Shown here: positions 2,457 through 46,900 of the stretch, in pieces
How positions within the stretch are numbered: the stretch's first letter is position 1
Layout: every line of letters begins with the position of its first letter
DNA from: a virus
Taxonomy: Duplodnaviria; Caudoviricetes
IMG/VR virus record: IMGVR_UViG_3300030376_005986
Coordinates: 1,929 to 65,928 of that record
DNA length: 64,000 bases
Strand: one strand, 5' to 3'
The notes under the pieces: model-generated
The model's input: only the letters and a program-made list of their open reading frames with translations
Told to the model about the DNA's origin: nothing
The model's database searches: none
Program-made: the position numbers and the translations under genes

Positions 2457-2459
2457 TTA

Positions 2460-3488
2460 CTAAAATGTTCCACAGTCTATTATTGATGAATCTTTAATGA
2501 ATGTAGCTGAATCAAAAATTGTTAAAGGTACATCACTGAAGGCATATTTTTTTGTATCACCACCCCCTGTGACATAAACAAGTTTATCATTACCTACTGG
2601 GTCAGAAGCTCCGTTTGCTACTTCTTCTAAATCAACAAACAAGTTAACAGTTCCTGTTGTGCCTCCACCGCCTAATCCTGTTCCCGCAGATACAGACGTT
2701 ATATCTCCAGCATAACTGCCAGTAACAAAAGTATGTATCTGATCTGCTGTTGCTAAGTTAGCTCCTCCATCTGCTATTGCTTCTGTAGTAGCACTAAGAG
2801 TGTTCCCTGTTTTAGTAAGACCAGCTCCTGCTGTGATTCCATGCGCTCCAGTAAACTGAGAGAACACCATGTTAGACATGGTAACTGTTTCATTAGTAGT
2901 GCAAACCCAACCAGTATCTTGGTAAACAGTTCCTTCCTCTACAAAGAAGAACATATTAGCAGAGAGGTCAGATGCGTTTTGTGCGTCTTCAGCTCTTACT
3001 AATTGCCACTGAGAACTAGTGTAAGTCATTTTCCAAATACCATTTTGAGACGCAGTTGATTGTGCAGTTAAAAGTATTCGGTCATTAGCGGCGAGTGTAA
3101 CACTGTCTACAGTAAGCGCAGAACTCTGTGCGCTAGTTGTATAACCCGCAACATTATCTACTGCTACAAGTTTAACTGAATCACGAACGTCTAATCCAAT
3201 GATCGCATTATCTAGATCAACTTTTCTGACAGCATCGTTTGCGGCTGTAGGAGCAGCAAGGTTAGTTAATCTCTTACTGTTCAAACTTACGTTTGCAGTA
3301 GGGGCTGGCATTAAATTTAAAGGCCCAGCTACTACTGGTTGGTTAGCTGCTTCACCACCAGTCTCTGTTCCTGATCCTATGTAAAGTGTATCAGTAACTT
3401 CATGATAAGCTAACTCCCCTCTTGCCAACGCAGTTGGTGCATTACCGTTAGCATTGTCACTGCGTTTAATTTTAAGTATATTTGCCAT
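2460..3488 (-). CDS. Tail fibre-associated structural protein (342 aa)
   Basis: N-terminus KIKRS...GELAYHEVTDTLYIG is shared with its neighbours; typical phage tail segment AANDRILLTAQSTASQNGIW; ends IDCGTF. Confidence 0.65.
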   Translation of the reverse strand: MANILKIKRSDNANGNAPTALARGELAYHEVTDTLYIGSGTETGGEAANQPVVAGPLNLMPAPTANVSLNSKRLTNLAAPTAANDAVRKVDLDNAIIGLDVRDSVKLVAVDNVAGYTTSAQSSALTVDSVTLAANDRILLTAQSTASQNGIWKMTYTSSQWQLVRAEDAQNASDLSANMFFFVEEGTVYQDTGWVCTTNETVTMSNMVFSQFTGAHGITAGAGLTKTGNTLSATTEAIADGGANLATADQIHTFVTGSYAGDITSVSAGTGLGGGGTTGTVNLFVDLEEVANGASDPVGNDKLVYVTGGGDTKKYAFSDVPLTIFDSATFIKDSSIIDCGTF

Positions 3489-3781
3489 TAGAAAAATCCT
3501 CCGTTAAGTGTCTTGTTATGTATGTCTTGATGGTTTTCAGTTCCAACTGCATCACCCTCAATTCTTAGAAGTTTTTTAATTTCATCAGCGGTCAAGGTTT
3601 GAGATTCTTCCAAACTCATTCCAGCTATAGCAATCTTATGCCTAGCCTGACCTCTGTTCTCTCCACCCGTACCAATATACAACAATCCATCGACCTCATT
3701 GAAAGCGATCTCACCACGACCTAAGTTGCGGGGTGGACCTTCTCTTTTAGTCTCATGCTGTATTTTAGTACGAACAGACAT
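3488..3781 (-). CDS. Small tail-associated protein with the same GEIAFN..LYIG N-terminal module
   Basis: RGEIAFNEVDGLLYIGTGG parallels RGELAYHEVTDTLYIGSG; start/stop coupled to neighbours. Confidence 0.55.
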   Translation of the reverse strand: MSVRTKIQHETKREGPPRNLGRGEIAFNEVDGLLYIGTGGENRGQARHKIAIAGMSLEESQTLTADEIKKLLRIEGDAVGTENHQDIHNKTLNGGFF

Positions 3782-4167
3782 TAGCCAACTTTTTGTACTA
3801 AAACTTTATAAGTAGAACCAACTGGGTTGTAGTTATAAAATATTAACTTACATGTGTTTGCTCCGTCCCTAACAGCAATAACATGTTGGGTATGGCCAAT
3901 ATCAAGCCCAGCATTTTGCTGGTTATAATATGAACCGCTACCGCTAGGTCTAGTTAACTCTATTACATCTACAATAACATCAGTACTTCCTAGCCCGTGA
4001 GTAAATTGAATAGTGTCATATCCATTATTTGCCGAATCACTGTTTTCTGTATCAGAAAACGTAAGACCAGTTCCGTGAGAACCTGTCGTGTGTGCAATCC
4101 AAGTAATTGTAGTAGCGTAACTTGAACTGCTACTGCTATCACCACTGCCTGTTATTTCTGCTGCCAT
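3781..4167 (-). CDS. Putative virion protein (128 aa)
   Basis: FTHGLGSTDVIVDV resembles the LQHNLGTDQIIVQ motif at the end of the 63124 fibre; coupled to neighbours. Confidence 0.45.
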   Translation of the reverse strand: MAAEITGSGDSSSSSSYATTITWIAHTTGSHGTGLTFSDTENSDSANNGYDTIQFTHGLGSTDVIVDVIELTRPSGSGSYYNQQNAGLDIGHTQHVIAVRDGANTCKLIFYNYNPVGSTYKVLVQKVG

Positions 4168-4179
4168 ATGCCTGTTTCC

Positions 4180-4539
4180 TTATACGAATTCTGCGTATGA
4201 AAGTTTTAAATTGCTGGCACTAAAAGCACTAATAGCTCCAGTGTAGTCATCAATCTTGATAGTTCCACCAGTCCCGTCATATGTAGACGAACAGGATTTG
4301 AGTATATAATGGAATGTAGTAGCACTAGCTGTTGCTCCCATAGCTATAGTTAAAGTACTTGTTCCATGATTTTGTATCGTGATCGACTTTCTAGCAGGAT
4401 TTCCTGCCGAACTAATTACTAACGTAGCGTTAGAACCATTGGTTTCGAAATCAGATCTTGGTGTAGCCGTTCCATCAGTAATCATGTTACTAGGCTGCGG
4501 CCCTCCTCCTATGTCTGGTGTGTATCCACTTGTACTCAT
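4180..4539 (-). CDS. Putative small beta-rich virion protein (119 aa)
   Basis: Beta-rich sequence (RKSITIQNHGTSTLTI) in the structural operon. Confidence 0.4.
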   Translation of the reverse strand: MSTSGYTPDIGGGPQPSNMITDGTATPRSDFETNGSNATLVISSAGNPARKSITIQNHGTSTLTIAMGATASATTFHYILKSCSSTYDGTGGTIKIDDYTGAISAFSASNLKLSYAEFV

Positions 4540-23946: not shown

Positions 23947-24046
23947 GAATTTCTAGTCAACGATGACTGAAAACAGGAGAACTCCCATCCCGTGTGATCC
24001 TGTCTTGTAACATGGCGTAATGCCTAGGGATAATAGGAGAAGTTAT

Positions 24047-24490
24047 ATGATTAATATAACAGTTCGTTATGGATTGGAGCGTCAAGCTACAATCGAGGTT
24101 GAGGATGGTTCATCTATCGCTCAAGTGTTAGAGAAGGTTCGTCCTGCTCTAGGTTTTGGCAGCAATGTTAAAGCCATGATTGGTGGTGTTACTCAGCCAG
24201 AATCTAACAGTGTTAGATGTGGTGATGTAATCACTGTCGAAACTGCGGCCAATTCAAAGGCAGCAGATGAGGTTTCCGTGACCGTCAAGTATGGTCTTGA
24301 GCGGAGCATCACAACCTCTGTTCCAGTGGGTAGTTCCATTGGTGATGTACTCAGAAGAGTACGTGCAGCACTGGGCTTTGGCGATAATGTCAAAGCGTTA
24401 ATCGACGGGGCTACTCAGCCTGAATCAAACACTGTCGCTGAAGGTGACGTGATCAGTGTTGAAACCGCAGCCAACTCAAAGGCTGTATAA
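24047..24490 (+). CDS. Tandem di-ubiquitin-like (beta-grasp) protein, 147 aa from ATG 24047
   Basis: AGGAG SD at about 24035. Two ~72-aa repeats (ITVRYGLERQATIEV...GDVITVETAANSKA and VTVKYGLERSITTSV...GDVISVETAANSKA) plus a final Val; upstream of E2, E1 and JAB genes. Confidence 0.85.
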   Translation: MINITVRYGLERQATIEVEDGSSIAQVLEKVRPALGFGSNVKAMIGGVTQPESNSVRCGDVITVETAANSKAADEVSVTVKYGLERSITTSVPVGSSIGDVLRRVRAALGFGDNVKALIDGATQPESNTVAEGDVISVETAANSKAV

Positions 24491-24531
24491 CTCTGGCCTT
24501 ACAAGGCTAGCCTTTTAGGAGCAGAACTGCA

Positions 24532-24566
24532 GCCCTCACGGGTAAAACCGTGGGGGCTTTCTGTTT
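24532..24566 (+). terminator. Intrinsic terminator between the Ubl and E2 genes
   Basis: GCCCTCACGG-GTAAAA-CCGTGGGGGC-TTTCTGTTT. Confidence 0.7.
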
Positions 24567-24585
24567 CTATACAATAAATAATAAT

Positions 24586-25434
24586 ATGAAATACGAAGAT
24601 ATAATAAAATCAAAACACTTGATACTAACAGATCAAGGTGTGTTCGAACCTGAATACAGAATGATGTATAAAGGTACAATGGATCAAAGATTAAAGCGTC
24701 ATATAGAATCTCAACCAATGATGGTTAATAATATATCATCAATGGCTGGTATGCCTATGAATTTTTCTAGGCTTGAACCTAAAGGGGAAGATTCTATATC
24801 ACTAAGCTTAGTAACCACTCAATTGAGTAAGCTTAAGTTTAACACAACATTTGAAATAATAACTAAAGATGTGTTTATGCTTTTCTCAAATGATAACGAG
24901 AAAGAATGTATAGATTTTGATGGACTACCTGACAAGTGGTTGTCCCCTACATTTAGGAATGGCGATTCAGAATCTAGAAGTAACAGGCAGACTTACACGT
25001 TGGACTGGGAAGTTCCTGAATATATAAAATTATATATTACAATGGAGTACCACGGGAAAACAGATAACAATACATGGCGACCAGCTAGAAGTTATCTTCA
25101 CTGCAAGATTGAATCTCATGAAAGTAATAAATGGCATGAGGAATCTAAAGGGTGGTTTGTTTTACCTACAGGTAATGTTTATGAGAACAGTGAAATATGT
25201 TTTGGTGAAACTTACATGGAGGACATAGGAATTGTTGATGCAACTAAGAAGAACATAGACTTATTCTATAGTACTCCTTGGAACTCTGACTTAACAAACT
25301 CAACTAAAGGTAGGAACTCATCAGTACTGTTCAGGTTTTGTGCAGATACAAACCAGCAGTTAGGTGTTCCGTGTCCTGCTCATATTCTTATGGAGAGTTT
25401 CAGTAAAACTTACTTAGAAAATATAAGCGTATAA
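24586..25434 (+). CDS. Prokaryotic E2 family D (PRTRC protein B-like) conjugating enzyme; probable start ATG 24586
   Basis: LPTGNVYENSEICFG...LFYSTPWNSDL matches the family pattern P..NVy..g.iC.G...F..s.fN.dL, with putative catalytic Cys in ICFG. Confidence 0.8.
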   Translation: MKYEDIIKSKHLILTDQGVFEPEYRMMYKGTMDQRLKRHIESQPMMVNNISSMAGMPMNFSRLEPKGEDSISLSLVTTQLSKLKFNTTFEIITKDVFMLFSNDNEKECIDFDGLPDKWLSPTFRNGDSESRSNRQTYTLDWEVPEYIKLYITMEYHGKTDNNTWRPARSYLHCKIESHESNKWHEESKGWFVLPTGNVYENSEICFGETYMEDIGIVDATKKNIDLFYSTPWNSDLTNSTKGRNSSVLFRFCADTNQQLGVPCPAHILMESFSKTYLENISV

Positions 25435-25808: not shown

Positions 25809-26546
25809 ATGTTTATTTTTAATATACCCAATGACATGAACAGACATTATCATATAATAGGAGCAGGCGGAGTAGGTAGTTGGTTACTACCTGCTCTGGT
25901 TAAACTAGCAGATCAACATGATTCCATTACTATACATGATGGAGATGATCTAGAGTTGAAGAACATGGACAGGCAACTGTTCAGAAAAGAAGACATAGGT
26001 TCTAACAAAGCGGAAGCACTTTCATCTAGGTATAAGAATGAAGCTCAGTGCATGATGTATACAGTACCTAGGTATTTCTCAGGAGAACTGGAAGGAGTCA
26101 TTGGTTCACCAGAATACACATGGCTTCTTGGTTGTGCCGATAATCATCCAGCTAGGAAGCTAATACTGGAGGCATGTGATACTCAGGGATACAAATCAAT
26201 CATAGGTGGTAACGGTTACACTGATGCTGATGCATACTTCTATGAGTCTAGTATGCGTGGGACTCCATGTGATCCACGGGTTTATTATCCTGATATACTA
26301 ACTGACACGACAGGTTCACCTATACATGCAGCGGGATGTACTGGTGAAGCACAAGATGAAACACCTCAACTTGTGCTGGCTAATATGTGGGCAGCAGCTC
26401 ACATGTTACATCTACTGTGGTATCACACTGAGATAGCTAAAGATATACCAGAAGATATGGAGGAACATATGCCTATGCTTTCTAGGAACTCAGCTTATAT
26501 GTTTGAGACAGTAAAGAAAGGTATGCTTAAAGGAACATTAAGTTAA
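25809..26546 (+). CDS. ThiF/E1-like Ubl-activating enzyme
   Basis: IIGAGGVGSW, DGDDLELKNMDRQ, GSNKAEAL, GCADNHPAR, then putative catalytic Cys in AAGCTG...PQLVLAN..AA. Confidence 0.9.
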   Translation: MFIFNIPNDMNRHYHIIGAGGVGSWLLPALVKLADQHDSITIHDGDDLELKNMDRQLFRKEDIGSNKAEALSSRYKNEAQCMMYTVPRYFSGELEGVIGSPEYTWLLGCADNHPARKLILEACDTQGYKSIIGGNGYTDADAYFYESSMRGTPCDPRVYYPDILTDTTGSPIHAAGCTGEAQDETPQLVLANMWAAAHMLHLLWYHTEIAKDIPEDMEEHMPMLSRNSAYMFETVKKGMLKGTLS

Positions 26547-26559
26547 GAGAGGAAATCGA

Positions 26560-27762
26560 ATGAGCCATGAATGTAGAATTTGCTTGGAAGCATTCATCCC
26601 AAATCAACCGTGGCAGGTATTATGCGGAAACAAAAACTGTTCGATTGAGAACAGGAAAAGAAACCGAAAGAAAAAATATCTAGAAGATCCAAAGGTAAAA
26701 GAATACAACAGGATATATGATAGTAAAAGGAGAGCTAAGGTTGAATCAAAAAAACCAAAAGGAAATAACTGTAAGCATTGTGGTAGCTGGTATAAATACC
26801 CATTCACCAAAAAAAATAAAGAAGGGGATTTAAATATAAACAGGGCAGTAAAATACTGCAGCTTAAAATGTAGAGAGAAATCTAAAAGTGTAAGACTACA
26901 AGGTGGTGGTCTTGTTTTTTTTAAAGGAGAAATAAAGCATTGGAAAAAAGTGAAAAAACATGAATGCAAAATCTGCAATAATACATTTGATGCAGAAAAA
27001 CTAGTGATAAGAGATGGAAAAAAATTCAAACAATATTTAAAGAATGCTTTATATTGTTCTGATAAGTGTAGGAAAGAAGCAACGAACGTCCTCTCTAGAG
27101 AGCGTTGGTGGCAAGGGGAAAGAGAAAAATACCTTAAGAAAAAAAGAAAAGGCAATTGTGTAGTTTGTGGTTTAATATACCACACCTTCAGTGGAAGACA
27201 GAAAACATGCCTTAAAAAAGAATGCCAAAGAGAAAGCCACCAAAGAGGCGTTAGGGTAAACAAAGGGCAAGAAGAAATACCCGTTGATAAGATACATAAA
27301 ATTAAATGTGAATACGACAAGTGCGGGAAAGTTTTTACTTGTAGAAAATCCACAAATTCAACAGGCAATCTCCCTAAGCACTGCTCCCGTGCTTGCGTTA
27401 AAAATAAACATGCTGATAATGTTAGGCATAGTTTAGATCATAAAATTAAAAGCAGGTTAAGATCTAGGGTAAGGTCTGCTCTAATGAACAACGCAAGGGG
27501 TAAAATAAACAAAGCTAAAAAAACAGAAGAACTTTTAGGTTGTAAAATATCTGAGTTGAAGAGTTTGTTTTCTAAAAAGTTTACACAAGGAATGTCGTGG
27601 AAGAAATTTCTAGCAGGCGAGATACACATAGACCACATCAAGCCGTGTATTTCATTCGATCTAACGAAGGAATCAGAGCAGAGGAAGTGCTTCAACTATA
27701 AGAACCTTCAGCCCCTATGGGCTAAGGATAATCTTAGCAAGGGTGCTAAGATAGCAGCATAA
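26560..27762 (+). mobile_element. HNH homing endonuclease with multiple CxxC Zn-finger repeats
   Basis: C-terminal HIDHIKPC..FDL....QRKCFNYKNLQPLWAKDNLSKG; repeated CxxC...YCS.KC units. Confidence 0.8.
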
Positions 27763-27766
27763 TTTT

Positions 27767-28333
27767 ATGGAGCAGATAACCATAGAAGGGATACTCGACC
27801 AACCCTTAATACAATTGGTCAAGAACGCACCATCTAATCCTATAACAAGGGGACAGATACGTGCCGCCACTAATCTGGTCATACCAGATGGAGTGATAAC
27901 AACGGAAGGCATAACTCAATATGTCTTGGAGAACTATGATGCAAGTAAAGCACCGTCCAAACCTGTGCTAAGGCTTGGAAGGCAAATGGATGGAGGTAAT
28001 GTAATATTTACTGATACATTCAGCGGATCTGAAACAAGGTATTACAGAACCACGGAGTCACTAGTTGCTTACATAGAAGAAGACGTGACGTTTACCGAGG
28101 CAGACTTTGATAATTGCCATGACAAAGAAGATATTATGAATGCTATAGAACGTAAGATTAATGATGAAGTATCTATCGGAGAAGTAGTAGACGAAGCTCA
28201 TCACGAAACTGTAGACAGGGAACTAGATGACAGTAGTGACCTTGACGTTGACTATAACCTTGAGGAAATTTGGGCTGAACATGGTGAAGCTATTGCAGCT
28301 AGCCTTGGATTAGCCATTGAAGAACTAGAATAA
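27767..28333 (+). CDS. Acidic hypothetical protein inside the Ubl operon (188 aa)
   Basis: D/E-rich C-terminal half; immediately precedes JAB. Confidence 0.6.
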   Translation: MEQITIEGILDQPLIQLVKNAPSNPITRGQIRAATNLVIPDGVITTEGITQYVLENYDASKAPSKPVLRLGRQMDGGNVIFTDTFSGSETRYYRTTESLVAYIEEDVTFTEADFDNCHDKEDIMNAIERKINDEVSIGEVVDEAHHETVDRELDDSSDLDVDYNLEEIWAEHGEAIAASLGLAIEELE

Positions 28334-28335
28334 CA

Positions 28336-29406
28336 ATGAACCTAATACTACATAAAGATACTGTTTATGAAACAGTAGAATCAGAATACTACACGGGGCA
28401 TCAACCAGTGAAGATAGTAAAAGGAGAGCCTAGCCTCTCTTGGAAAGGTGGTAAGATACCAATAGAAGAATGGAATAAAATACTAGCATTCTTCAAGTGG
28501 TCTTACGACGAGACTAAAAGCGAGACGCAAGTGCGTCTGTTGTATAACCCTACTGAAAACAAGTGGGCAGCATGGGCGTTCCCTCAGGAACACGGTACAG
28601 GTATGACAACGAAAGAGATAGATGGGGTTGATAAAGATACCCAAAGAGAAAAGTTCTCTGGTTACATTGTCAACGGAACTGTTCATCACCATTGTTCATC
28701 ATCTGCATTCCAGTCAGGAACTGACAAGGACAATGAACAAAGCCAAGACGGGGTGCATATTACAGTAGGACACATGGATACACAAAAGTATGACATACAT
28801 GCTAGAGTGTGTAGATCCAACTCAATGTATTCATGTTCATACAGTGAATGGTTTGATTACCCTGATGAATGGACAAGCATACTTCCTAAGAAGTTTATCA
28901 ATGAAGCTGTCAAAGAAGTGTTAGTTACCCCGCCTAGTGAACCTTCGTTCCCTGAAGAGTGGAAAAGTAATCTTATTAAAGTAGAGAAATCTATTTATTC
29001 TGGGTGGAGCGGAAGAAGAAATTACAGTAATGATGATTGGTATCAATCACAAAAGACTCACTTCAATACGCCGACTAAACTTCCTGCAGAATATACAGAA
29101 GAAGAGAAGAAGGAAGAGATAACTAAGCTTATAAAAGAATGGCTTGATGAGAACGGAGATTCGTTACAAATGGATGCTATGGATCTATTGGAAATGTGGG
29201 AGTATGTATTGATTGCAGATAAGGTTATAGATCTGAATGAAGCTATAGATAAAATGGAAATCACTGAAACGGAATTCGAATCATATTGTCAGTCAATCAC
29301 ACTTGACGAGGCCAACAATCATATGGATGACACAGTTGAAAAAGAAGACATCACCATTGAAGGAGACATTAAGTATACAGATCACTATGGCAGCTATGGA
29401 TTATGA
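28336..29406 (+). CDS. JAB/MPN+ metalloprotease (PRTRC protein A-like deconjugase) with acidic C-terminal extension
   Basis: Upstream Glu in SETQVRLLY; HxH-x7-S-x2-D in TVHHHCSSSAFQSGTDKDNE; DGVHITVG. Confidence 0.85.
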   Translation: MNLILHKDTVYETVESEYYTGHQPVKIVKGEPSLSWKGGKIPIEEWNKILAFFKWSYDETKSETQVRLLYNPTENKWAAWAFPQEHGTGMTTKEIDGVDKDTQREKFSGYIVNGTVHHHCSSSAFQSGTDKDNEQSQDGVHITVGHMDTQKYDIHARVCRSNSMYSCSYSEWFDYPDEWTSILPKKFINEAVKEVLVTPPSEPSFPEEWKSNLIKVEKSIYSGWSGRRNYSNDDWYQSQKTHFNTPTKLPAEYTEEEKKEEITKLIKEWLDENGDSLQMDAMDLLEMWEYVLIADKVIDLNEAIDKMEITETEFESYCQSITLDEANNHMDDTVEKEDITIEGDIKYTDHYGSYGL

Positions 29407-29622: not shown

Positions 29623-30588
29623 ATGGAAAACATAATATATGAACAACAGATAGATCCTGTTACCGCGAACTTAGCACGACATGTGTATAAGTGTAGACCG
29701 AAAACAAATGTCACAAGAGGTTTACCTGAGTGGCATAAAGCAATGAGAGACTTCAAGATTCACAACAGTTTACTTAATCTAAGTAACTCTCATCATAGAG
29801 GTGGAGGCTTACATGATAGGCATTCATATCATCACCATTGTTTTGATAATACGTATGCTGAGGTGGTTGATACTCTACCAGAACATCATTACCACAAGTT
29901 CTACTTAAGCCCTGAGTCAACTAGATGGAGCTTAGCGGACACCATGAACATAGAGAGCATACCTTACTGGAAATACATAAGGTTATATTATGTCTCTCAT
30001 GTGTTTAATTGGAACGAAAATGCTACTGGAGCAGACCGTGTTAGTTTTAGCAGAAGAGAGCACACCTTTGCTGTGTGGGGTAGAGATGGAAGGGTAAGGT
30101 TAGCACCTAATGCTATGTTATCAGAGGGAAAAGGTATTAGCTTATACAATAGGTTGAACGGGTTAATGGGTTTTAGTTATCAAAGAACTCAAAGTGACGA
30201 TGATCAACCAGTTTTCTCAGTTGAATCAGGAATGCTTAGAATTAATAGAACAATTAAAACTCATAGGAACTACTCAGAAAATATAACAAGTATGCCTGTA
30301 ATGAACGGAGATATAATCGACGTTAAGACAGGAGAACATCATTCAAGATGGATGCATCGTGAACGAGAGATGCCTGACATAATGTCTGACATCAAACTTA
30401 AAAGACAACTACCTTCTCAAATCAGATCTCAGTTTACAAATGCACCAATGAATCCATCTGTAAGGTCAGCGATTCGTGCGGAGATTAATCAAGTTGTTCC
30501 TGATCAAGTTCAAGATATAGAAGCATTAGATAGGTTTCTTAATGAAGGTAGAACTATTCTCTCAGAAAAAGGAGTGTTCATATTATGA
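29623..30588 (+). CDS. Hypothetical protein (321 aa, His-rich segment)
   Basis: ORF track. Confidence 0.65.
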   Translation: MENIIYEQQIDPVTANLARHVYKCRPKTNVTRGLPEWHKAMRDFKIHNSLLNLSNSHHRGGGLHDRHSYHHHCFDNTYAEVVDTLPEHHYHKFYLSPESTRWSLADTMNIESIPYWKYIRLYYVSHVFNWNENATGADRVSFSRREHTFAVWGRDGRVRLAPNAMLSEGKGISLYNRLNGLMGFSYQRTQSDDDQPVFSVESGMLRINRTIKTHRNYSENITSMPVMNGDIIDVKTGEHHSRWMHREREMPDIMSDIKLKRQLPSQIRSQFTNAPMNPSVRSAIRAEINQVVPDQVQDIEALDRFLNEGRTILSEKGVFIL

Positions 30589-37547: not shown

Positions 37548-37922
37548 ATGTCTCAGAAATTACCAACAGAAGTAGATATACTTAACCTAACCTACAAGAT
37601 TAACTGGATGGAACCTCCTGAAGAATCAGGTGCTGAACAGTTAGGACTGTGTGACTTCCAAGAACAAATCATATCTGTAACCAAGTCATTACCTAGGCAG
37701 TCAAGAGCCGAGACTCTATTACATGAAATTATTCATGCGATTAATCACGGCATGGGTGCTCCTAATAAAATAGACGAAGAAAAGTTTACTGGTAAGATGT
37801 CTATAGGTATGGCTACAGCTATCAAGCAAAGCCCTGAGGTTTGGAAGTGGATCATGAAAGAGATCTGCTACAAAACACCAAAGCCTAGAAAGAAAACAGT
37901 TAGTAAGTCCTCCGTAAACTAG
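37548..37922 (+). CDS. HExxH zinc metallopeptidase-like protein
   Basis: LGLCDFQEQIISV....RAETLLHEIIHAI. Confidence 0.7.
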   Translation: MSQKLPTEVDILNLTYKINWMEPPEESGAEQLGLCDFQEQIISVTKSLPRQSRAETLLHEIIHAINHGMGAPNKIDEEKFTGKMSIGMATAIKQSPEVWKWIMKEICYKTPKPRKKTVSKSSVN

Positions 37923-40900
37923 GGAACGGAACAGTTTGTTCTCTAGGGACTCTCCTTGAAAATCCCTTACTAGGTATAACAGATCTGTTGCCTCTAAACC
38001 TAGGAGAACGACCACCTATTCTTTTTAATCCATTATAAAAGTTAACTTCATTTATAAGATACTCGTTTCTTTGAGACTCATTTAAAGAGTTAAGAATTTT
38101 AGATCTTATAGAGCTAGTCACTGGTCCTTGAAGAGCTCCCCTGTAAGCATCTTTCCCTGCATAAATATTTCTAATCTTTTGAACAGGATTCTCATCACCT
38201 GCATTTTGAGAAGCAGCTATCGCTTGTTTAAAATGATGGTTAAAAGAATTCCAGTCCTCAAGCATTGCATAGTTAACCATTAGCGAAACTTGCACAGAGG
38301 TTGGTGAAGATGTTTGACCACCTCCAGTGTAGTTAGATCTCCTGACTCGATCTCTTGGGGCATACCTTCTTATAAGCCTCATGTTATCTCTTACCTTAAC
38401 GGTTCCAGCAATTGGACCTATTCTGTTAACTAAGTATCTAGAATTAGGATACATTTGCTTTGTGAACATAACTAAATTTCTTTCTAAAGCTCCACCACTA
38501 ATACCTTCAAAGGTTACTTTAGATAGGAAGTTCATAGTGTTAGATATTTTATTTTGTATAAAGAAATCATACCCTTGACCAACAGGAATTTCATCGTTAA
38601 GCCACATGTTAAAAGGAGCATTAATCATAGGGAATCCACTAAGACCATAAAGGAGTGTTCTTTGTATGCCCTTACCTATTGTTTGTTCTTCCCAAGGTTG
38701 CCTCCCTGCTTTTACTTCCCCGAACAAGAACTTATATATCATCCTTAGAAGTTCTTCCTGAGTTGCAAAACTAACAGCAGCTACTGTCATCATCCCCATT
38801 AAGACTACAGCTAATTGAATCTTTAAAGAATCTATCCCTCCAGTTTGTTTCCCTCTAGGTGATTTAGATAAATACTGAATACTGTTAAAAGCTGCTGAAA
38901 CAGACCAACCTATAATAGCTAATAAGAAATTTGAGTTCGCTTGAGTTTTAGTTTGGATGGGTCTGTTAGCTACAGTTGCAAGGTTCTCAGAAGTAACAAG
39001 TCCTATCCCTAATTGTGCTCTTTGTTCTGTGGTTAGAAATGTAGCATCTTTATTTGTGTCTAGTTCTTTAAGAAACCTTAACGCTTCAGCGTGGTAGTCT
39101 ATAGCTGAATGACTAAACATTTCTTCAAGTTGAGCCATAGATGTTTCATTTGCTTTGAATATAAACTGATCACCAAACGCATCAGTAGGTGTTAAGACAT
39201 CTGACTTACCTTTGCTTTTAGGGATAGAAGGATCTGGATCGTTATATCTTTCCCATATTTTATTTCCATCTCTTCTATGTAAATCTTTAAGTCTTATCTC
39301 TAAGACAGACATTGCAGTGTTAGCAAATCTAAATGAAATATTATTACCTACTGTATCAAATATTCTAGGTAATGCCATACCCGGAATCTCTGCTAAGAAA
39401 AGTGCTGATCCATTATACCAAGTAGACAGGCCGCTTCTTAAATCACTTCTAGATCTCAGCTCATCTTCTCTTTCTATTCTTCCTCTAGTCTCAACACTCT
39501 CAAGATAGTTATCAATCTTTCCTTGAACATTAATTCTAGATGTGTAACCAGCTTCATTTAATCTTCTTAATGCAGAGTTTATTTTAAATTGACCTAAGCT
39601 AATGTCTTCCACAAAAGGTTTGTTAAGGAACTCATCTAGAAATGTTGACAATACTTTCGATCCTTTACGTGTTTTTACACCCTCTAATGCTCCCTTTCCT
39701 ACACCCTTGGTAAATCCTACTCCAAAAGTAAGTCCACCTTTTACAATCTCCTTGAGCATATCAACAGCAAATCCTTTATGTAATGTAGCGTTACCTCCAA
39801 ACATTGAAACCATTCTCATGTTTGATCTTGTAGCGGTCCCCCAAACATTAACTAAACCTGTTGTAAGTAATTGAATAGCAACCATAACAACATCACCAAA
39901 CACTCTTCGGTAGGTCCTGTTAATTTGCATCTCAAACTTTTTATCTTTCTCAAGGAACCCTTCAAGCTCAACTATCTTAGATTGTATAGCATTTAAATGG
40001 TTCTCTGCTCTTTCGTAATCTAAGAAGACCTTTCCATTTTGCACGCTTTGCTTCTTGTCTTCTAAGAATTCATTTATTAAACCATTGTTAGCTGCGTCTT
40101 GCTTTTCTTTAACAGCAATATCTAATTCACCAGCTACTGCTTTTAATGATGCTATGAAACTGTCTAAGTATTGAACAGCAGACTCATTGATCAAGTTGTG
40201 AACAGTAGCGGTCTCGAAAGATCCATACTCATAATAAAAGTAATTTGCTACAGCCTCTTGTCTTGAGGTTGTGAAAGGAGAATCACTTCTTGTTTTCTTA
40301 TATTCTACTCCAGATGAAGCATCAATAGGCTCATGCATGAATTTATTAAACTTATAAGATTGAGATGTCATCTCTCTTATTAATTCATACAAGGATTCTT
40401 TTGTGTTTAAATTAACAGGCTCTTCCTCTTCACCTAACTTAGTTACATCTACAGATCTATTTGAAAAGAACATAGCAAGATCTGTTAAGTCTTTTATATC
40501 TCCATTTAAAACAGCATCTCTAGCTTCATCGTAAACCCCTTCAGTAAAGTAAGGATCAGTTCCATTTGTTATTCTTCCTTCCCTGTTATCTAAGAAAGGT
40601 AATACATATCGTTGAAAGTTACCCCCTATTAATTCAATTATTGAATCACCTCTTTTATTTTTATCCGCATACAAGTCTAGCTTAAGCTCTCTTTTTTCTT
40701 TATCAGTTTTATCTTCAAGTGAATCAATGTCATCAAACTCTTTTTTATTGTCGTCTAATATGTTTGATATTTTTGAGGATAAACCTAAAGCAAATGTGGA
40801 GAATCTTTTAGGAAGAGTGTACTCAGTATCTTTTAATGCTCTTCGTCCAAACTTTCTTGGGGATTTTTTATCTCTCGCTTTTAACTCTTCATTAGTTCTT

Positions 40901-43900
40901 CTCCCAAGAATAACATCTCCCCTTCCTTTCTTAACATCTAAAGCAAATAAATCACCAAAGGCTTTTACTTGAAGTTTAAGAGCTGCAATATCCTCTTTAG
41001 TTACAGTTTTTATTTTTGTTGAATCGGAAACAGTAGCTACGTCACCTACTGAAGGAAGCCTTCCTGTTACATTTGCTAAAGCAAATAACCTTTGACCTAT
41101 AGAATTCCTCCAGTCAGCAACCCCTATAGGTCCTTTCTGAAATCCGTGAGATCTTGCCGCATCAAACAGTGCAGCTTTTATATCCTCTTCATATTTCTTG
41201 CCCCAATCTACACCACGCTCAAGAGTTAAAGCCCAGTTATCTAAATGAGTTGTCGCAAGTTTAGATGTAAAAGTTCCTACTGAAGATAATAAATTTTGCA
41301 AAGGCCTGAATCCAAAAGCATCTGAATCCATTACATTCCTTAACATCTTCCCATCCCTGATTGTTGGGCCTAGTAATGTTGCGACAGCGTGATCTCTTAA
41401 CTCTATCCAAGCAGGAGTAAATGGATCATCTTGATTTTCAGGATCATTTATCCATTGATTAATGCTATCTATGTATTGAGACAGTTTTAATAACTCCTGT
41501 TCTCTTCCTTCAGTATCACTTAAATCCCATTTAATGCTAACACTTTTCTCTTGTTCTGGATGAGGGAATAATCCTTCGCCTTGAGTTAGTTCCATCTGCT
41601 CCACAGGCTTAGCTTTTATTACCTCTGAAGATATCTTCCTAGCTTTACTGAATTGCTCATGCTCAACTATTCTTCCAGCAACTTCAGCAGCAATTTTTAT
41701 GTCATTGTTTGCTCTTATCTCATTTAAAACTTTCCTTCTCAATGAAAGAAATAATCTGTTAGCAACTGCTAGTTCACCTGTTGCTGTATTGTAATCTTTT
41801 AGTAGCTTGTCTATTGCTCTTTTACGCCCATCAACTTTTACAAGAACACGCTTACCTCCTCTTGTTGCGAACTCTTTGTCTGTTGCGAATAGATTAGAAA
41901 TCTCTTGCTCGTATTCACTGTAAGCTTCAAATGAATCACGCAAAGTTTCTTCAGATACTTTATTTAAAAGAACATCATTCTTATGTTTCTGAAGTATGTG
42001 GTCAGCTGCAAACTTTACTATAGGATCAACCTCAGAGAATACCTTTTCCATTGTTTTTGTATTCCAAGATCCCTTCTTTAAATGTTTTCTATAAAGTCCT
42101 TTCTCTACTATGTAAGCAAAAACAAGATCTCTCCAAGTAGCCTCCTTGCCTTCCCTATTTATACCTTTATGCAAAATGATTTGAGCATCAGCATTGTTCC
42201 ATACAGTGTTATAAAAATTCTCTATGGTTTTAAATATCTCAGGGCCAACAAGTTTATCATCTAGTTGACTTGATAATCTATTTAAATCAAATCCATATTT
42301 AGTTAGCAATTCTAAAGCTTTAGATTCTGCTCCATCAGCTTTCACTTTTTCAAGTAGGTTCTTATAGAACATCTTAAAAGAAGAAACAGAATTGCGAGCA
42401 GCTTGCTTAGTAGAAAACTTATCCTTAACTTCATCCATTAAAGATATTAATTTTTCTTGCTCAGATTCAGAGTCTATAGTTTTAGCCTGCTCCCTTAATC
42501 TCTGATAAGAAATAACAAACTCTTCTGTGTTCTTGAAGAACTCTTTGCTAACCTGCTCCCATATTGAAACAGGAAGTTCGTCTTTTATTTTATGCAACTC
42601 AAGATAACCTTCAGCATTAAATATTAAACCGTTAGTAGTTTCTTGGTTCTCTTCAAGTATCTTTCTAATAGCCTCAGAGTTTTTAACACTTGCAAGGCTT
42701 GCTGCTTTTTTAGAAATTTCAAAAACATCATCAGTCTCTGTGACAAACTCTCCGTCTTTAAATTTAGTTTTGCCAAGCATGTTCTTGAACTCTTCTTCGC
42801 CTTCCATATCTTTCAAAACTTTTTGATACAAGTCGTATATCAAATTATGAAAAGACCCAGCTTCAAGTGACACCCTTCTAGCAGCTTCAACATTACCTTC
42901 TTCTTTTAAGGCTTGATTCCTTACGTTAAACTTAATTGCTTTTTGTAAGTCTTTCGGGGTTTGTATTGAAGCGTTAAGATTAGGACCAGCAGTAAACATT
43001 TGCCTTTCAACAGTGAACTCACCTGATTTGAACTTAGACAAAACTTCTTTAGCAAATTTTCTTTCAGGTGAAACTAAACCCAGCTTGTTAAACACCCATT
43101 CTAAAAGATCAGATAGATAAGACTTAACTCTAGATGTAAACCCAACTGGGTTTGTTTCTGGTAATAGTTTATTAATATCAGCCTGACCTTCTTTAGTCAT
43201 AATGTAAGCAAAGAACTCGTTATCATTTATTAAATGATACATATCACTAGCCCTTTCCCCGTATTTATCTATATAAGACTGAAAACTATCTACGCCTAGT
43301 TGATTAATAGAATCTATTCTAGATAGAATGTCGTTAGCTATTTCAAGCCTGTATCTTAAGCTACCATCTGGAGTACTAGAGATTACTTTCTTTAATGCTT
43401 TCCTTCTCATCTCAGTTACATTCTCTTGCATGTCCTGAGGAATAAACGCATGAAGGTAGTGAGAAAATTCATGAACAAAACTGTCAGCTGTCTTACCTTC
43501 TAAAGGTATAGAAATAGTTTTCATTGCCTCTACAAATGAACCACCTAATTCAAAACCTCTATCAGTTCTAAGTGATGTGCTTATAGAGAGAGTTAATTCT
43601 TTTAAATATTTTTCAGGAATATTACTAAGTAAGATAATAGCCCTGTCCACAAAACCAGCCCCAAGTTTATCTCTGTTATCTTCTAGTAACTGGACTATAC
43701 CATCTGCTCCTATAGCAGATCCGACTTCTTCAGATCGTTCTGAATCACTAGCCTTAACACCTGTTACAAGTGCGTCACTATCATAAGGAGCACCTTTTTG
43801 TATAGGTAGGTCAGGAGAAGGTCTATCAGATTTAACTGTTGTATAATTTTTAGGAAGAGTGTTGCTGAGTGTGACAGATAAATACTTACTAGTAAGTCTA

Positions 43901-46900
43901 TCTAGACTAGCCTCGCCACTGCTTGCATCTCTTAACTTGCTTAATAAAATTTCAGGATTAGAGTCAACCTCTTTAAGTGTTCTTCTTAAACTATTTAATT
44001 GAGTCTGAGCTGATCTTTCTTTTTTATTCAATTCACTTTCAAGTGATTGATCTTCACGATACTGTCTCTTTATTTCTTCTGTTACCTTCCTGCCAGTTCG
44101 AGATCCTTGTTCAATTATTCTTTGTTGAATAGTTTTTACTGAACCAAATTCTATTCTGTTCTTTTTAGCCTCTCTATATTCTTCTTCAGCCTTACCTATT
44201 TGAAGTTCAAGATTTCTTGTTTCATCTTGAATGAACTTACGCTCTTCTAAATCCTCTATAACTCTAGGTTCAAAAGGAATATCAAGAGAACCAGCAAGGT
44301 AATCTAATACCTGAGCTCTTTTATTTGAATCTAAACCAGTAAGCTTTTTAACTATAGCAGATCTTTCTTTCATTCCACTTTCAGCAGCAAACAGCTCTAT
44401 GAATTCATCAAAAATTGAACCTATTATAATTTGTTTTATATATTTCCTGCTACCTTGTTTTAAATCTTGTTCAGTTAACTGGTCTCTGTTTTTAGGCATG
44501 AACTCTCTAGCGTATTCAGTAATCTTATCTTGAATCTCTTTTCTTATTTCTAATTTTTCTTGAGTGAATTCTGAATCAGTCATTCCTTCAGGAGTAATCG
44601 GACCTAAATAGAAACCAGAGTTAGAGAAAGCTGGATGCTCAAGTATTTTAAACGGATCTCTAAGCTCTAATGTTTTATATAACTTGTAATATAAAGTGGC
44701 TGGGGTTTCAGTTCTTCCAGACTTCTTAAGATCAAGTTTAAAGAACTCACCATCTCTACCTTTATTTTTTGCAGTCCCTGTTTCTCTGAATTGATCCTCA
44801 CTAAATCTATTAGATAAAGATATAAGCATTCCAAACATTACTCCGGGGTCCATAGCACCAGCACCACCCGTAAAGAATGAATCAACTATCTGCTTAAAGA
44901 CTATACCTTTCTTTCTTATCTTTCTAGTAGTGATGCCGAACTTGCCAGTAGATTCTGCACTGATCTTAGCTCTCTTATCTAAGATGGCTAATAATTTCCT
45001 ACCTGCCTTAACTCCACCTGATAAGTAATCCCGATTGTCTTCCTCTTTGGCTGTCAGTAAAGTTCTCTTAGGTCTTCCAGTTTTTTTAAGCCATTTAGGG
45101 TCAGTCTTCCTCTTAAGTTTTTTCTCTTTAAGATCCTCTTTAAGTTCAAGCAGCTTAGGTTCTAAATCATTTTCTAATATATCTTCTATTCTCCTGTAAT
45201 CATTTCTATCTAGAGTGATTTGTGAATCAGATTCGCTAGAAATTATAAACTTAAAATCTCTTGCATATGTATATTCTATATTCGTCAGTGGACTTCTCTC
45301 ATAAAAATTCTTTTTAGAATCTCCGTAAGATCTCCTAAGCATAGACCTTTCTTTTTCTTTCTGAGTTGGCTTTGTAAAAACAATTAAGTCCTCTTCTAAA
45401 TCACCAAGTGTTTCTACTCTAGATCTTCTAAGATTCTCCTTTTGATCTAAATGATACTGGTATCTATTGCCATCAAAATATTCTAACTGAGCAGCATCAA
45501 ATCCAAACTGCTCACCAAGCTTCTTATCCATAGAAGTTATAACAGTAGAGATAGCTAATAATTCTTTAGTAAGTTCCCTGAAACTATCCAAAGTTCCTTT
45601 AATATCTGTAAGCTCAGCTAAGGCTGTATATACATCAGATCCTAACCCGTATCTCAAAGTAAAACTATCTATATAGTTTTTTATCCCGTCTTCATCTAAA
45701 TTTAAAACATCAGGGTATGAATCAATATCTCCAGTAGCACTGTAAGATTTTGGGTTTGCTAGTATTTTATCTACAGTAAAGTCACTAGCAGTTGGTGGAT
45801 TTATTTGGTCTTCGGAAGCCCAACCCATTGCTTCCAAAATTAAATAACCTTCATCCTTTTGTTTTAATTTTTCAACAACCTCATTAGTTCTTTTTGCTAT
45901 GAGACTTAATAATATATCTTCTCTTTGAAATGATTTTATATATGACTCATGGATTATATCTCTTTCTTCTTTGATCTTATTAAATCTGTCTACAAAGATT
46001 TTAATCCTGTCTTCTTGTGATGTATATACACTGGATGATTCCATCCTTTGTATATTTTCTTTCTTCAAAAGATCATAAAGTAAGTATTGAGTTTTATCTC
46101 TTGCTTGTAACTCAGTACCATCAAATAATAAAAAGTCAGTGCCTCTAAGTTCTAAGAACTTATTCCAACCAATAAGCATTTCTTTTTGAAACTGAATTAT
46201 TTTTTCTCTAAACTTATTATCTGATAAATCATTACTTTGAATTGTATCTATTAGATTTTTTCTTGCTTCTCTGAATGCTTTGTTAGCCCTTCCTATTTCT
46301 GTATCCTCATAAAATTCACCTGCGATAAATTTCCTTACCTCTTCTTCTTCCTCGCTTCTTTCAAGAACATCAGCAGGAGATACTTCACCTACAGCATCAG
46401 CGTCTGGATCTTTCGCTGCAACAATATCATCCTTAGTAGAGATGAGTTCAGTAAGATTAGCGTCCTTAGCTTCATCTGTTGGACGAAACCTTCTGTACTC
46501 ATCACTCTTATACTTAACTGATTTTAGTTCAATGTCATCGTTATAAAGACTAGATATTTCATTATAGAGGTTAGATATATCAGAACCTTCAACTTTCCCT
46601 TCAGGGCTTATGTAATTTCTTATTCTACTTACAACGTCTTCTGCATAAGCAATGTCTACCCTTAACTTTGAAGGAGTATATTCCAGATCTTCTTGAGAAG
46701 AGTAGTCTAAGTTAGTGGCTTGAATTTCAATTTCATCTGTTGGGGTATCTTTTTCAGTTAGTGTTCGTTCTTCTAAGACAGTTATTCTTTTTTTAATTGA
46801 CTCAAGAAGCTCTTTAGCATAACGGCGATCCTCAGGTTTAAGGCTCTGCCTTTTTTGTCCTGCTTTAGAAAAGAACCTGTCTTTCTGTGGTATTGTTAAA

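What the first reader, a model, noticed from the sequence alone, without database searches (positions are those of the whole stretch)
24047..24490. Polyubiquitin-like precursor: two head-to-tail Ubls ending ETAANSKA, capped by one extra Val
Seen in sequence: unit 1 (72 aa) and unit 2 (74 aa) have diverged in the body but share an identical ETAANSKA end; a single Val follows unit 2 before the stop. Established: eukaryotic polyubiquitin precursors are head-to-tail units with an extra terminal residue removed by DUBs. Inference: the JAB cleaves after ...SKA to release two different mature modifiers ending in Ala rather than Gly-Gly, so conjugation would be gated by JAB. The two units may have different targets or form chains.
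Basis: partly seen in the sequence, partly recalled or inferred. Interest (0 to 1): 0.78.

Follow-up and report, generated by a model that had tools for sequence, protein, structure and literature searches.

The report
Phage two-unit ubiquitin-like tag precursor
An uncultured marine phage encodes two ubiquitin-like units fused head to tail, each with the same Lys-Ala tail and one extra residue at the end, next to its own E2, E1 and JAB protease genes. This is laid out like a eukaryotic polyubiquitin gene, but cleavage into two tags is inferred, not shown.

Summary
ORF 24047-24490 encodes 147 aa: unit 1 (72 aa), unit 2 (74 aa), both ending ETAANSKA, then one Val. The units are 68% identical in protein and 61.5% in DNA. 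Four of the eight tail codons differ, all synonymously, so selection rather than recent gene conversion keeps the tails identical.

Both units model as beta-grasp folds with disordered tails. Homologues (40-98% identity) keep both tails and a one-residue cap.

The unit belongs to a large, metagenome-only family with no Pfam model. It occurs as one, two or three units. Lys-Ala/Gly is the usual end (147 terminal units), and 0-82 extra residues follow it; one is commonest. All 47 full-length internal units keep the tail.

Fourteen further phage contigs carry the same cassette (Ubl, hairpin, E2, E1, JAB) with a single Ubl. The cassette is a distant relative of PRTRC (class 6d), whose Ubl ends Gly-x-Lys-Gly with or without a cap.

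Most likely the JAB trims the cap and cuts the junction, releasing two Ala-ended modifiers. Cleavage is inferred. An intact ISG15-like di-Ubl is the main rival.

The scan has noted similar poly-Ubl genes in other phage genomes (for example e1-5355605, same Lys-Ala family).

The parts
24035..24039 (+). Shine-Dalgarno AGGAG, 8 nt before the ATG at 24047
   Evidence: Read from the sequence. Homologues start at this Met.
24047..24490 (+). Di-Ubl gene, 147 aa plus stop
   Evidence: AF2 model with two beta-grasp units. Foldseek top matches are linear di-ubiquitin and ISG15.
24047..24262 (+). Unit 1, residues 1-72
   Evidence: hmmsearch with the single-unit profile covers profile positions 1-74. Strands 2-8, 12-18, 41-45, 61-66 and helix 24-35.
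24239..24262 (+). Tail 1, ETAANSKA (residues 65-72). The inferred JAB site is after Ala72.
   Evidence: E65, N69, K71 and A72 are invariant in 20 homologues. pLDDT is below 50 for residues 68-73. Codons differ from tail 2 only synonymously.
24263..24484 (+). Unit 2, residues 73-146. It starts ADE, with no Met and no spacer.
24461..24484 (+). Tail 2, ETAANSKA (residues 139-146)
   Evidence: At least 90% conserved in homologues. Disordered in the model.
24485..24487 (+). Capping codon, Val147, before the TAA stop
   Evidence: Homologues carry V, E or Q here. One extra residue is the commonest state in the family: 61 of 147 terminal units.
24531..24568 (+). G+C-rich hairpin (11 pairs) followed by a T-rich run, between the Ubl and E2 genes. 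Terminator-like.
   Evidence: A strong hairpin lies at the same place in 15 of 16 related loci, z from -3.7 to -7.7.
24586..25434 (+). E2-like gene (Prok-E2_D type)
   Evidence: P194, N197, C205 and G207 are invariant in 11 orthologues, with Cys 8 residues after Asn. Prok-E2_D matches 7 of 11 orthologues, all below Pfam's cut-off.
25809..26546 (+). E1-like adenylating enzyme (ThiF family, 245 aa)
   Evidence: Pfam ThiF 2.4e-17. PRTRC_ThiF 3e-11, below cut-off. GxGGxGS, R55, Q56 and D111 are invariant; C177 is nearly invariant.
28336..29406 (+). JAB/JAMM metallopeptidase, the proposed processing enzyme
   Evidence: E63, H117, H119, S127 and D130 are invariant in 16 orthologues. Prok-JAB matches 8/16 and PRTRC_A 15/16. 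AF2 model matches Rpn11, CSN5, AMSH, bacterial BilC (8tyx_B) and PfJAMM1.

Best explanation
The gene encodes a precursor of two paralogous ubiquitin-like modifiers. It is translated as one 147-aa chain. The cassette's JAB/JAMM peptidase cuts after the Lys-Ala of each tail (after Ala72 and Ala146). This frees unit 1 and removes Val147 from unit 2. Each freed unit then ends in Ala. The 245-aa ThiF-type E1 adenylates that Ala and passes the unit to the E2 cysteine (C205 of the E2), which transfers it to a target that is still unknown. Until the JAB acts, both ends are blocked, so processing gates conjugation. The tandem layout and the hairpin after the gene both serve to make more tag than enzyme. 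Shown here: the repeat, the fold, conservation of both tails and the cap, the intact catalytic motifs, the conserved cassette and the family-wide end rule. Inferred: every biochemical step.
For: 1. Both tails are under purifying selection. They are identical in protein but 4 of 8 codons differ synonymously. E65, N69, K71 and A72 of the internal tail are invariant down to 40% identity.
2. Family rule. Among 147 terminal units the end is K-A (122) or K-G (25). 41 proteins stop exactly there, 61 carry one extra residue, and others carry up to 82. The longer forms cannot be activated without trimming. None of the C-termini listed stops at the Lys.
3. All 47 full-length internal units in two- and three-unit relatives keep K-A/G. 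The residue after the junction (A, S, N, Q, V...) is drawn from the same set as the first cap residue. An enzyme that trims caps should therefore also recognise junctions.
4. A JAB gene is present in all 16 cassettes that extend far enough, and its metal site is intact.
5. Tandem copies arose many times. There are 22 same-protein sister pairs in the unit tree, 14 with support of at least 0.93, including a three-unit protein with 96-100% identical units. Repeated amplification fits a dosage benefit from released monomers.
6. The AF2 model shows two separate beta-grasp units with disordered tails and low pTM (0.40), so no fixed inter-unit packing is predicted.
7. Precedent. BilC removes a one-residue cap that blocks BilA (PMC10557695). 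BubCD cuts a Ubl-E2 fusion (PMC11601596). Cap3 cuts a linear cGAS-cGAS fusion, and Cap2 accepts Gly or Ala ends (PMC10097602).
8. PRTRC protein C ends G-x-K-G with 0-36 extra residues, which is the same tail logic.
Against: There is no biochemical evidence for any step. Characterised bacterial Ubl2/Ubl3 proteins of Bil and Bub operons work as intact multi-domain units (PMC11601603). About 17 family members have Q, N, S, R, H, F or T after the Lys, so the identity of the activated residue is not fully settled. The within-protein nearest-neighbour count is inflated, because the library holds one representative per 50% cluster. The tree rests on 74 columns. An internal tail could also be conserved as a docking element rather than as a cleavage site.
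Confidence: 0.55

Rival explanations
1. It is an intact two-domain modifier, like ISG15 or BilA. The JAB removes only Val147. The 146-aa di-Ubl is activated at Ala146 and attached whole. The internal tail is kept as a flexible linker or docking element.
For: Foldseek ranks ISG15 next to linear di-ubiquitin. The padloc BilA model gives a weak match across both units (E 1.1e-3). Known bacterial Ubl2/Ubl3 proteins act as intact units (PMC11601603). In this clade the duplication is old and both units are always kept.
Against: In the Bil/Bub Ubl3 structures domains 1 and 2 pack tightly and serve self-assembly rather than activation (PMC11601603). From my own knowledge, the first domain of ISG15 has no activation tail. 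Here all 47 full-length internal units keep the complete K-A/G tail. Linker length after the tail varies from 1 to about 30 residues, and no fixed inter-unit packing is predicted (pTM 0.40). Near-identical triplications such as P0139 look like dosage amplification.
Confidence: 0.27
2. The precursor model is right, but the cut and the activated end are at the invariant Lys. The Ala or Gly after it is then the first cap residue.
For: Lys is the only invariant tail residue across 50 diverse units. None of the C-termini listed ends at Lys, as expected if a cap is obligatory. About 17 members have a non-small residue after Lys.
Against: The position after Lys is Ala or Gly in about 90% of units, and 41 proteins end exactly there. 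PRTRC protein C commonly ends exactly at K-G. In the one case tested, Cap2, Ser, Val, Arg and Trp ends abolished conjugation while Ala was tolerated (PMC10097602).
Confidence: 0.06
3. It is a ThiS/MoaD-type sulfur carrier pair. The E1 makes a thiocarboxylate for a cofactor or for nucleic-acid thiolation, with JAB trimming as for QbsE/QbsD or CysO/Mec (from my own knowledge).
For: Some homologues carry a precomputed ThiS hit. Weak ThiS/SAMP2 similarity. One source names a relative 'sulfur carrier protein ThiS'.
Against: There is no Gly-Gly end. A conserved E2-like gene with an invariant Cys sits next to the Ubl in the cassettes. No sulfurtransferase or thiolation enzyme was detected among the neighbours.
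Confidence: 0.05
4. It is a non-conjugated protein, for example a decoy that occupies host Ubl machinery (Bil, CBASS Cap2/Cap3), with the tandem layout raising avidity.
For: The gene lies in the phage early/replication region. Host Ubl systems act against phages (PMC10557695, PMC11601596).
Against: The phage carries its own complete, motif-intact E1, E2 and JAB in a conserved order in 14 further contigs. A decoy would not need these.
Confidence: 0.05

Closest known systems
Eukaryotic polyubiquitin precursor genes (UBB/UBC/UBI4 type)
   Same: Beta-grasp units lie head to tail with essentially no spacer. Every unit keeps the full activation tail. One extra residue caps the last unit. Copy number changes readily in evolution.
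   Different: There is no detectable sequence relation to ubiquitin (no Pfam ubiquitin hit). The tail ends Lys-Ala, not Gly-Gly. The two units are diverged paralogues (68%), not identical copies. The proposed protease is a JAMM metalloenzyme encoded in the same cassette. The gene is in a bacteriophage.
PRTRC cassette, which matches class 6d of Iyer, Burroughs and Aravind 2006 (PMC1779556): Prok_Ub (protein C), Prok-E2_D (B), DUF2016+Prok-JAB (A), ThiF, alpha-hel2 (F), E and ParB
   Same: It has the same four activities. E1, JAB and E2 give sub-threshold matches to PRTRC_ThiF, PRTRC_A/Prok-JAB and Prok-E2_D. The Ubl tail follows the same rule: PRTRC protein C ends G-x-K-G with 0-36 extra residues.
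   Different: The Ubl does not match Prok_Ub (hhalign probability 0.3). No ParB, protein E, alpha-hel2 or DUF2016 was detected. The gene order differs (Ubl-E2-E1-JAB against C-F-B-A-ThiF). The host is a phage, not a plasmid or ICE. The end is mostly Ala. The Ubl is tandem here.
Bil (BilABCD) and Bub (class 6E) bacterial ubiquitination-like defence systems
   Same: They comprise Ubl, E2, JAB and E1. The JAB pre-processes a capped or fused Ubl (PMC10557695, PMC11601596). [quoted passage not shown] Iyer 2006 already called the 6e polyUbls 'reminiscent of poly-ubiquitin'.
   Different: The Bil E1 has inactive plus active adenylation domains and a Cys domain; here the E1 is a 245-aa single domain. 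The only padloc hit is a weak BilA match (E 1.1e-3). Bil/Bub multi-domain Ubls act intact, with domains 1 and 2 packed together for self-assembly (PMC11601603); here every unit keeps the activation tail.
Type II CBASS Cap2/Cap3
   Same: A bacterial E1/E2 accepts a C-terminal Gly or Ala. The JAB Cap3 cuts a linear head-to-tail fusion exactly at the first C-terminus (PMC10097602).
   Different: The conjugated protein there is a cGAS-like enzyme, not a beta-grasp Ubl. E1 and E2 are fused.

Membership tests
Polyubiquitin-type precursor (architecture, not homology) | Two or more beta-grasp units head to tail in one reading frame | tested here: met
   68% identical units, E 3e-33. Two beta-grasp folds. 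Best structural matches are linear di-ubiquitin.
Polyubiquitin-type precursor (architecture, not homology) | Every unit keeps the C-terminal activation tail | tested here: met
   Both units end ETAANSKA. The internal tail is invariant at 4 of 8 positions in 20 homologues. 47 of 47 full-length internal units in the family keep K-A/G.
Polyubiquitin-type precursor (architecture, not homology) | Extra residue(s) after the last unit | tested here: met
   Val147. Homologues carry V, E or Q.
Polyubiquitin-type precursor (architecture, not homology) | Proteolytic release of monomers | not testable with these tools
   Needs protein biochemistry.
Ubiquitin family (PF00240) | Sequence match to ubiquitin and a Gly-Gly end | tested here: not met
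   No Pfam ubiquitin hit at E 0.1. The end is Lys-Ala.
PRTRC / class 6d cassette | Ubl of family Prok_Ub (PF14454 / PRTRC protein C) | tested here: not met
   No Prok_Ub or PRTRC_C hit for this protein or for 50 family units. hhalign against a PRTRC protein C gives probability 0.3. Only the x-K-G/A tail plus optional cap is shared.
PRTRC / class 6d cassette | E2 of family Prok-E2_D (protein B) | tested here: inconclusive
   Prok-E2_D matches 7 of 11 orthologues, best E 5.1e-4. The window protein scores 15 bits against a 25-bit cut-off. The N-x7-C motif is shared with PRTRC_B.
PRTRC / class 6d cassette | JAB of family PRTRC_A (DUF2016 + Prok-JAB) | tested here: inconclusive
   PRTRC_A matches 15/16 orthologues, best E 1.4e-5, far below the 101.8-bit cut-off. 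Prok-JAB matches 8/16. DUF2016 was not detected. The JAB fold and metal site are confirmed.
PRTRC / class 6d cassette | ParB-family protein, protein E and alpha-hel2 protein F in the cassette | tested here: not met
   None was found among the neighbours by Pfam or NCBIfam. Compare the Cupriavidus cassette.
Bil system (BilABCD) | E1 with inactive plus active adenylation domains and a Cys domain; BilA-type Ubl | tested here: not met
   The E1 is 245 aa with one ThiF domain. The padloc BilA match is only E 1.1e-3, and no BilB, BilC or BilD hits were found.
ThiS/MoaD sulfur carriers | Gly-Gly end and partner sulfur-transfer or cofactor genes, no E2 | tested here: not met
   The end is Lys-Ala. An E2-like gene is present. 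Only weak ThiS similarity was found.
ISG15/BilA-type obligate di-Ubl | First domain lacks an activation tail and packs against the second | tested here: not met
   Unit 1 keeps the full tail. pTM of 0.40 with per-unit pLDDT near 80 suggests no fixed packing. That structural evidence is weak.

The most novel reading that the evidence does not exclude
Phages of this lineage make ubiquitin-like tags from polyprotein precursors, as eukaryotes do with polyubiquitin, and this layout evolved many separate times inside one Lys-Ala-ended Ubl family. The phage's own JAB releases two distinct paralogous tags, which its E1 and E2 attach through a C-terminal alanine to host or phage proteins during infection. 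That would be a virus-run protein-tagging system in bacteria with a non-glycine linkage.
Probability: 0.45. Interest if true: 0.78.

Novelty: new variant of a known kind. Interest (0 to 1): 0.64.

Why it matters
Bacterial ubiquitin-like conjugation has so far been studied as host defence against phages (CBASS, Bil, Bub). Here the phage owns the whole kit.

The tag gene shows the hallmark of eukaryotic polyubiquitin: repeated, tail-bearing units plus a cap. It sits in a family that ends in Lys-Ala rather than Gly-Gly.

If the JAB does cut the junction, three things follow. Precursor-style tag production arose independently of eukaryotes. E1 enzymes of this class use an alanine end. The system could also supply short, orthogonal tag/protease/ligase parts.

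All four proteins are small and could be tested in vitro without the unknown host.

Tried and rejected
No docking evidence could be obtained.
The gene neighbourhoods of the metagenomic one- and three-unit relatives (P0066, P0139, P0039) could not be read. Contexts come only from 17 IMG/VR loci.
There is no expression or transcript-end evidence for the hairpin.
P0076 and P0139 were not found in viral contigs.
- Cultured phages (INPHARED): no match to the Ubl, the 9-kb DNA, a single-unit relative, the E2 or the JAB.
- The E1 gives weak hits only. Flavobacterium phage FpV4 has no matching Ubl, E2 or JAB within 5 kb.
- Salmonella phage Arash has E2, JAB and E1 relatives but no Ubl of this family. 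It is therefore not a model for the Lys-Ala tag.
- P0093 (2353 aa, 15 'stretches') is a false positive. It is an unrelated repeat protein that shares a short KYGLGA-like word.
- Profile searches of the unit, JAB and E2 alignments against PDB sequences gave nothing significant. The JAB call rests on motif, Pfam/NCBIfam sub-threshold hits and fold.
- Recent gene conversion as the cause of identical tails is rejected by the synonymous differences.
- The ORF start at 24020 and the E2 GTG start at 24550 are rejected. The first is not shared by homologues; the second lies inside the hairpin.

Full report
**What is in the sequence**

The window is 64 kb of a 65.9-kb IMG/VR virus record, about 92% complete. 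GC content is about 38%. It carries a large terminase, virion proteins, a DnaB-type helicase and a 4353-aa ORF.

ORF 24047-24490 on the plus strand has AGGAG 8 nt before its ATG and encodes 147 residues. Residues 1-72 and 73-147 align without gaps at 68% identity, E 3e-33. Both copies end ETAANSKA, and a single Val follows the second.

At DNA level the copies are only 61.5% identical, with 28 synonymous and 23 non-synonymous codon differences. In the two tails four of eight codons differ and all four changes are synonymous. The shared octapeptide is therefore kept by selection, not by recent copying.

**Fold**

An AlphaFold2 model built on 20 homologues (mean pLDDT 75) gives two beta-grasp units. 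Residues 68-73 and 143-147 are disordered, and pTM is low at 0.40, which suggests no fixed packing between units. Foldseek ranks linear di-ubiquitin and ISG15 first, E about 1e-9.

No Pfam or NCBIfam family claims the protein. Only weak ThiS/SAMP2 similarity appears.

**Close homologues**

Twenty-nine proteins from marine metagenomes (40-98% identity) have the same two-unit layout.

- In the alignment E65, N69, K71 and A72 of the internal tail are invariant.
- The second tail is at least 90% conserved.
- One extra residue (V, E or Q) ends the protein.

That test was run and did not refute.

**The wider family**

A profile search of 1.84 billion representatives found 286 proteins at E up to 1e-3. 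Cutting them with a single-unit profile gave 135 one-unit, 67 two-unit and 5 three-unit proteins.

- Among 147 terminal units aligned to the end of the profile, the penultimate residue is always Lys and the last is Ala (122) or Gly (25).
- After that residue 41 proteins stop. 61 carry one more residue, 14 carry two, and the rest carry up to 82.
- None of the C-termini listed stops at the Lys.
- About 17 members have another residue after Lys: Q, N, S, R, H, F or T.
- All 47 full-length internal units keep Lys-Ala/Gly.
- The residue after an internal junction is drawn from the same set as the first cap residue.

A one-residue cap is thus the modal state. The longer extensions cannot be activated by an E1 without trimming.

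**Repeated duplication**

In a maximum-likelihood tree of 223 units, 22 pairs of units from the same protein are sisters, 14 of them with support of at least 0.93. One three-unit protein has units 96-100% identical. Tandem copies therefore arose many times, or are homogenised.

In the window's own clade the second units form one group (support 0.85). This points to one old duplication, with both units and both tails kept ever since.

Two caveats apply. The library is clustered at 50% identity, which inflates the within-protein nearest-neighbour counts. The tree rests on 74 columns.

**Gene neighbourhood**

Downstream lie four genes.

- An E2-like gene (24586-25434).
- A 245-aa ThiF-type E1 (25809-26546; Pfam ThiF 2.4e-17).
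- A zinc-ribbon/HNH ORF.
- After a 188-aa ORF, a 356-aa protein (28336-29406) with the JAMM signature.

Seventeen IMG/VR loci were recovered. Fourteen come from further phage contigs of 36-69 kb.

Across orthologues the catalytic residues hold.

| Protein | Orthologues aligned | Conserved residues |
|---|---|---|
| JAB | 16 | E63, H117, H119, S127, D130 invariant |
| E2 | 11 | P194, N197, C205, G207 invariant; Cys 8 residues after Asn |
| E1 | 15 | GxGGxGS, R55, Q56, D111 invariant; C177 nearly invariant |

The JAB model (pLDDT 74) matches Rpn11, CSN5, AMSH, the bacterial BilC (8tyx_B) and PfJAMM1.

**A conserved hairpin**

Between the Ubl and E2 genes lies an 11-pair G+C-rich hairpin followed by a T-rich run (24531-24568). 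A strong hairpin sits at the same place in 15 of 16 loci, with z-scores from -3.7 to -7.7. The other cassette genes abut or overlap.

I read this as a partial terminator or 3' stabiliser that gives more tag than enzyme. This is an inference; there is no transcript evidence.

**Relation to known systems**

Sub-threshold matches point to PRTRC.

- E1 to PRTRC_ThiF, 3e-11.
- JAB to PRTRC_A in 15/16 orthologues and to Prok-JAB in 8/16.
- E2 to Prok-E2_D in 7/11.

A Cupriavidus plasmid cassette confirms the mapping: protein C is Prok_Ub, B is Prok-E2_D, A is DUF2016 plus Prok-JAB, and F is alpha-hel2. This gene set matches class 6d of Iyer et al. 2006 (PMC1779556).

PRTRC protein C from seven plasmids in four phyla ends G-x-K-G, either exactly or with 3-36 extra residues. 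The phage family shares this tail rule, although its body is not detectably Prok_Ub.

The phage cassette lacks ParB, protein E, alpha-hel2 and DUF2016, and its gene order differs. I therefore treat it as a distant relative, not a member. It is not Bil either: the E1 is a single domain, and only a weak BilA hit exists.

**Mechanism**

The best reading is a precursor. The JAB cuts after Ala72 and Ala146. Two Ala-ended paralogous tags are then adenylated by the E1, passed to E2 C205 and attached to unknown targets.

Each step has precedent.

- A native one-residue Ala cap blocks BilA conjugation until BilC removes it (PMC10557695).
- BubCD cuts a Ubl-E2 fusion after Gly (PMC11601596).
- Cap3 cuts a linear cGAS-cGAS fusion at the first C-terminus (PMC10097602).
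- Cap2 accepts Gly or Ala but not Ser, Val, Arg or Trp (PMC10097602).

**Rivals**

The main rival is an intact di-Ubl. Characterised Bil and Bub Ubl2/Ubl3 proteins act as whole multi-domain units (PMC11601603). Against it: in the Ubl3 structures the first two domains pack tightly for self-assembly, whereas here every internal unit keeps the full activation tail. Linker lengths also vary widely, and no fixed packing is predicted.

Minor rivals are cleavage at the invariant Lys, a sulfur-carrier role, and a non-conjugated decoy.

**Novelty**

Iyer et al. 2006 noted two- to three-repeat Ubls in class 6e, 'reminiscent of poly-ubiquitin'. Multi-domain Bil and Bub Ubls are known. Full-text searches found no paper describing a phage-encoded, tail-bearing tandem Ubl or this Lys-Ala family.

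Earlier notes of this scan report similar poly-Ubl genes in other phage genomes, including one with the same ET.AN.KA ends. I treat those as leads, not evidence.

No cultured phage carries this Ubl, E2 or JAB. The first tests would therefore be in vitro.

Noticed in passing
window 24531-24568; same position in L003, L008, L011-L015, L017-L023: A strong G+C-rich hairpin with a T-rich run follows the Ubl gene in 15 of 16 related phage loci, while the other cassette genes abut. It may be a partial terminator or 3' stabiliser that sets the tag-to-enzyme ratio.
   Followed up: partly
window 26560-27762: A 400-aa ORF with five CxxC...CxxxC zinc-ribbon-like repeats and a C-terminal HNH motif (phrog_1271) sits between E1 and JAB. 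It occurs only in the two-unit clade (window, L003 at 368 aa, L004 at 283 aa). The single-Ubl cassettes lack it. It could be a mobile endonuclease or a recruited zinc-finger adaptor.
   Followed up: partly
window 27767-28333 and 29623-30588: The 188-aa ORF before the JAB and the 321-aa ORF after it share a short region by phmmer (E about 1e-3). By eye this looks like a motif of roughly NAP.NP..R..IRA..N.V.PD. ORFs matching the 188-aa protein lie between E1 and JAB in several related loci. They may be paralogous adaptors or substrates.
   Followed up: no
window 24550 versus 24586: The GTG start listed for the E2 ORF lies inside the hairpin. The ATG at 24586 fits the orthologues better.
   Followed up: partly
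P0038 and P0042 (metagenomic three-unit relatives): The first and third units have full Lys-Ala tails and end exactly at KA. The middle unit is a degenerate beta-grasp with no tail. If cut at the tails, these would give one single unit and one two-domain tag.
   Followed up: no
L034 (Salmonella phage Arash, OQ632216.1) 1519-4539: A cultured 181-kb phage has adjacent E2-, JAB- and E1-like genes. The E2 and E1 are annotated 'structural protein'. No Ubl of the Lys-Ala family was found upstream. The cassette is related but probably uses a different tag.
   Followed up: partly
window 37900-50961 (-): A single 4353-aa ORF in a 66-kb phage genome. It was not examined.
   Followed up: no
L026 (Lysinibacillus sphaericus plasmid NZ_CP014857.1) 3940-5870: One of the closest plasmid hits to the E1 is a ThiF gene next to DNA polymerase III gamma/tau and delta' genes, not a PRTRC cassette.
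   Followed up: no
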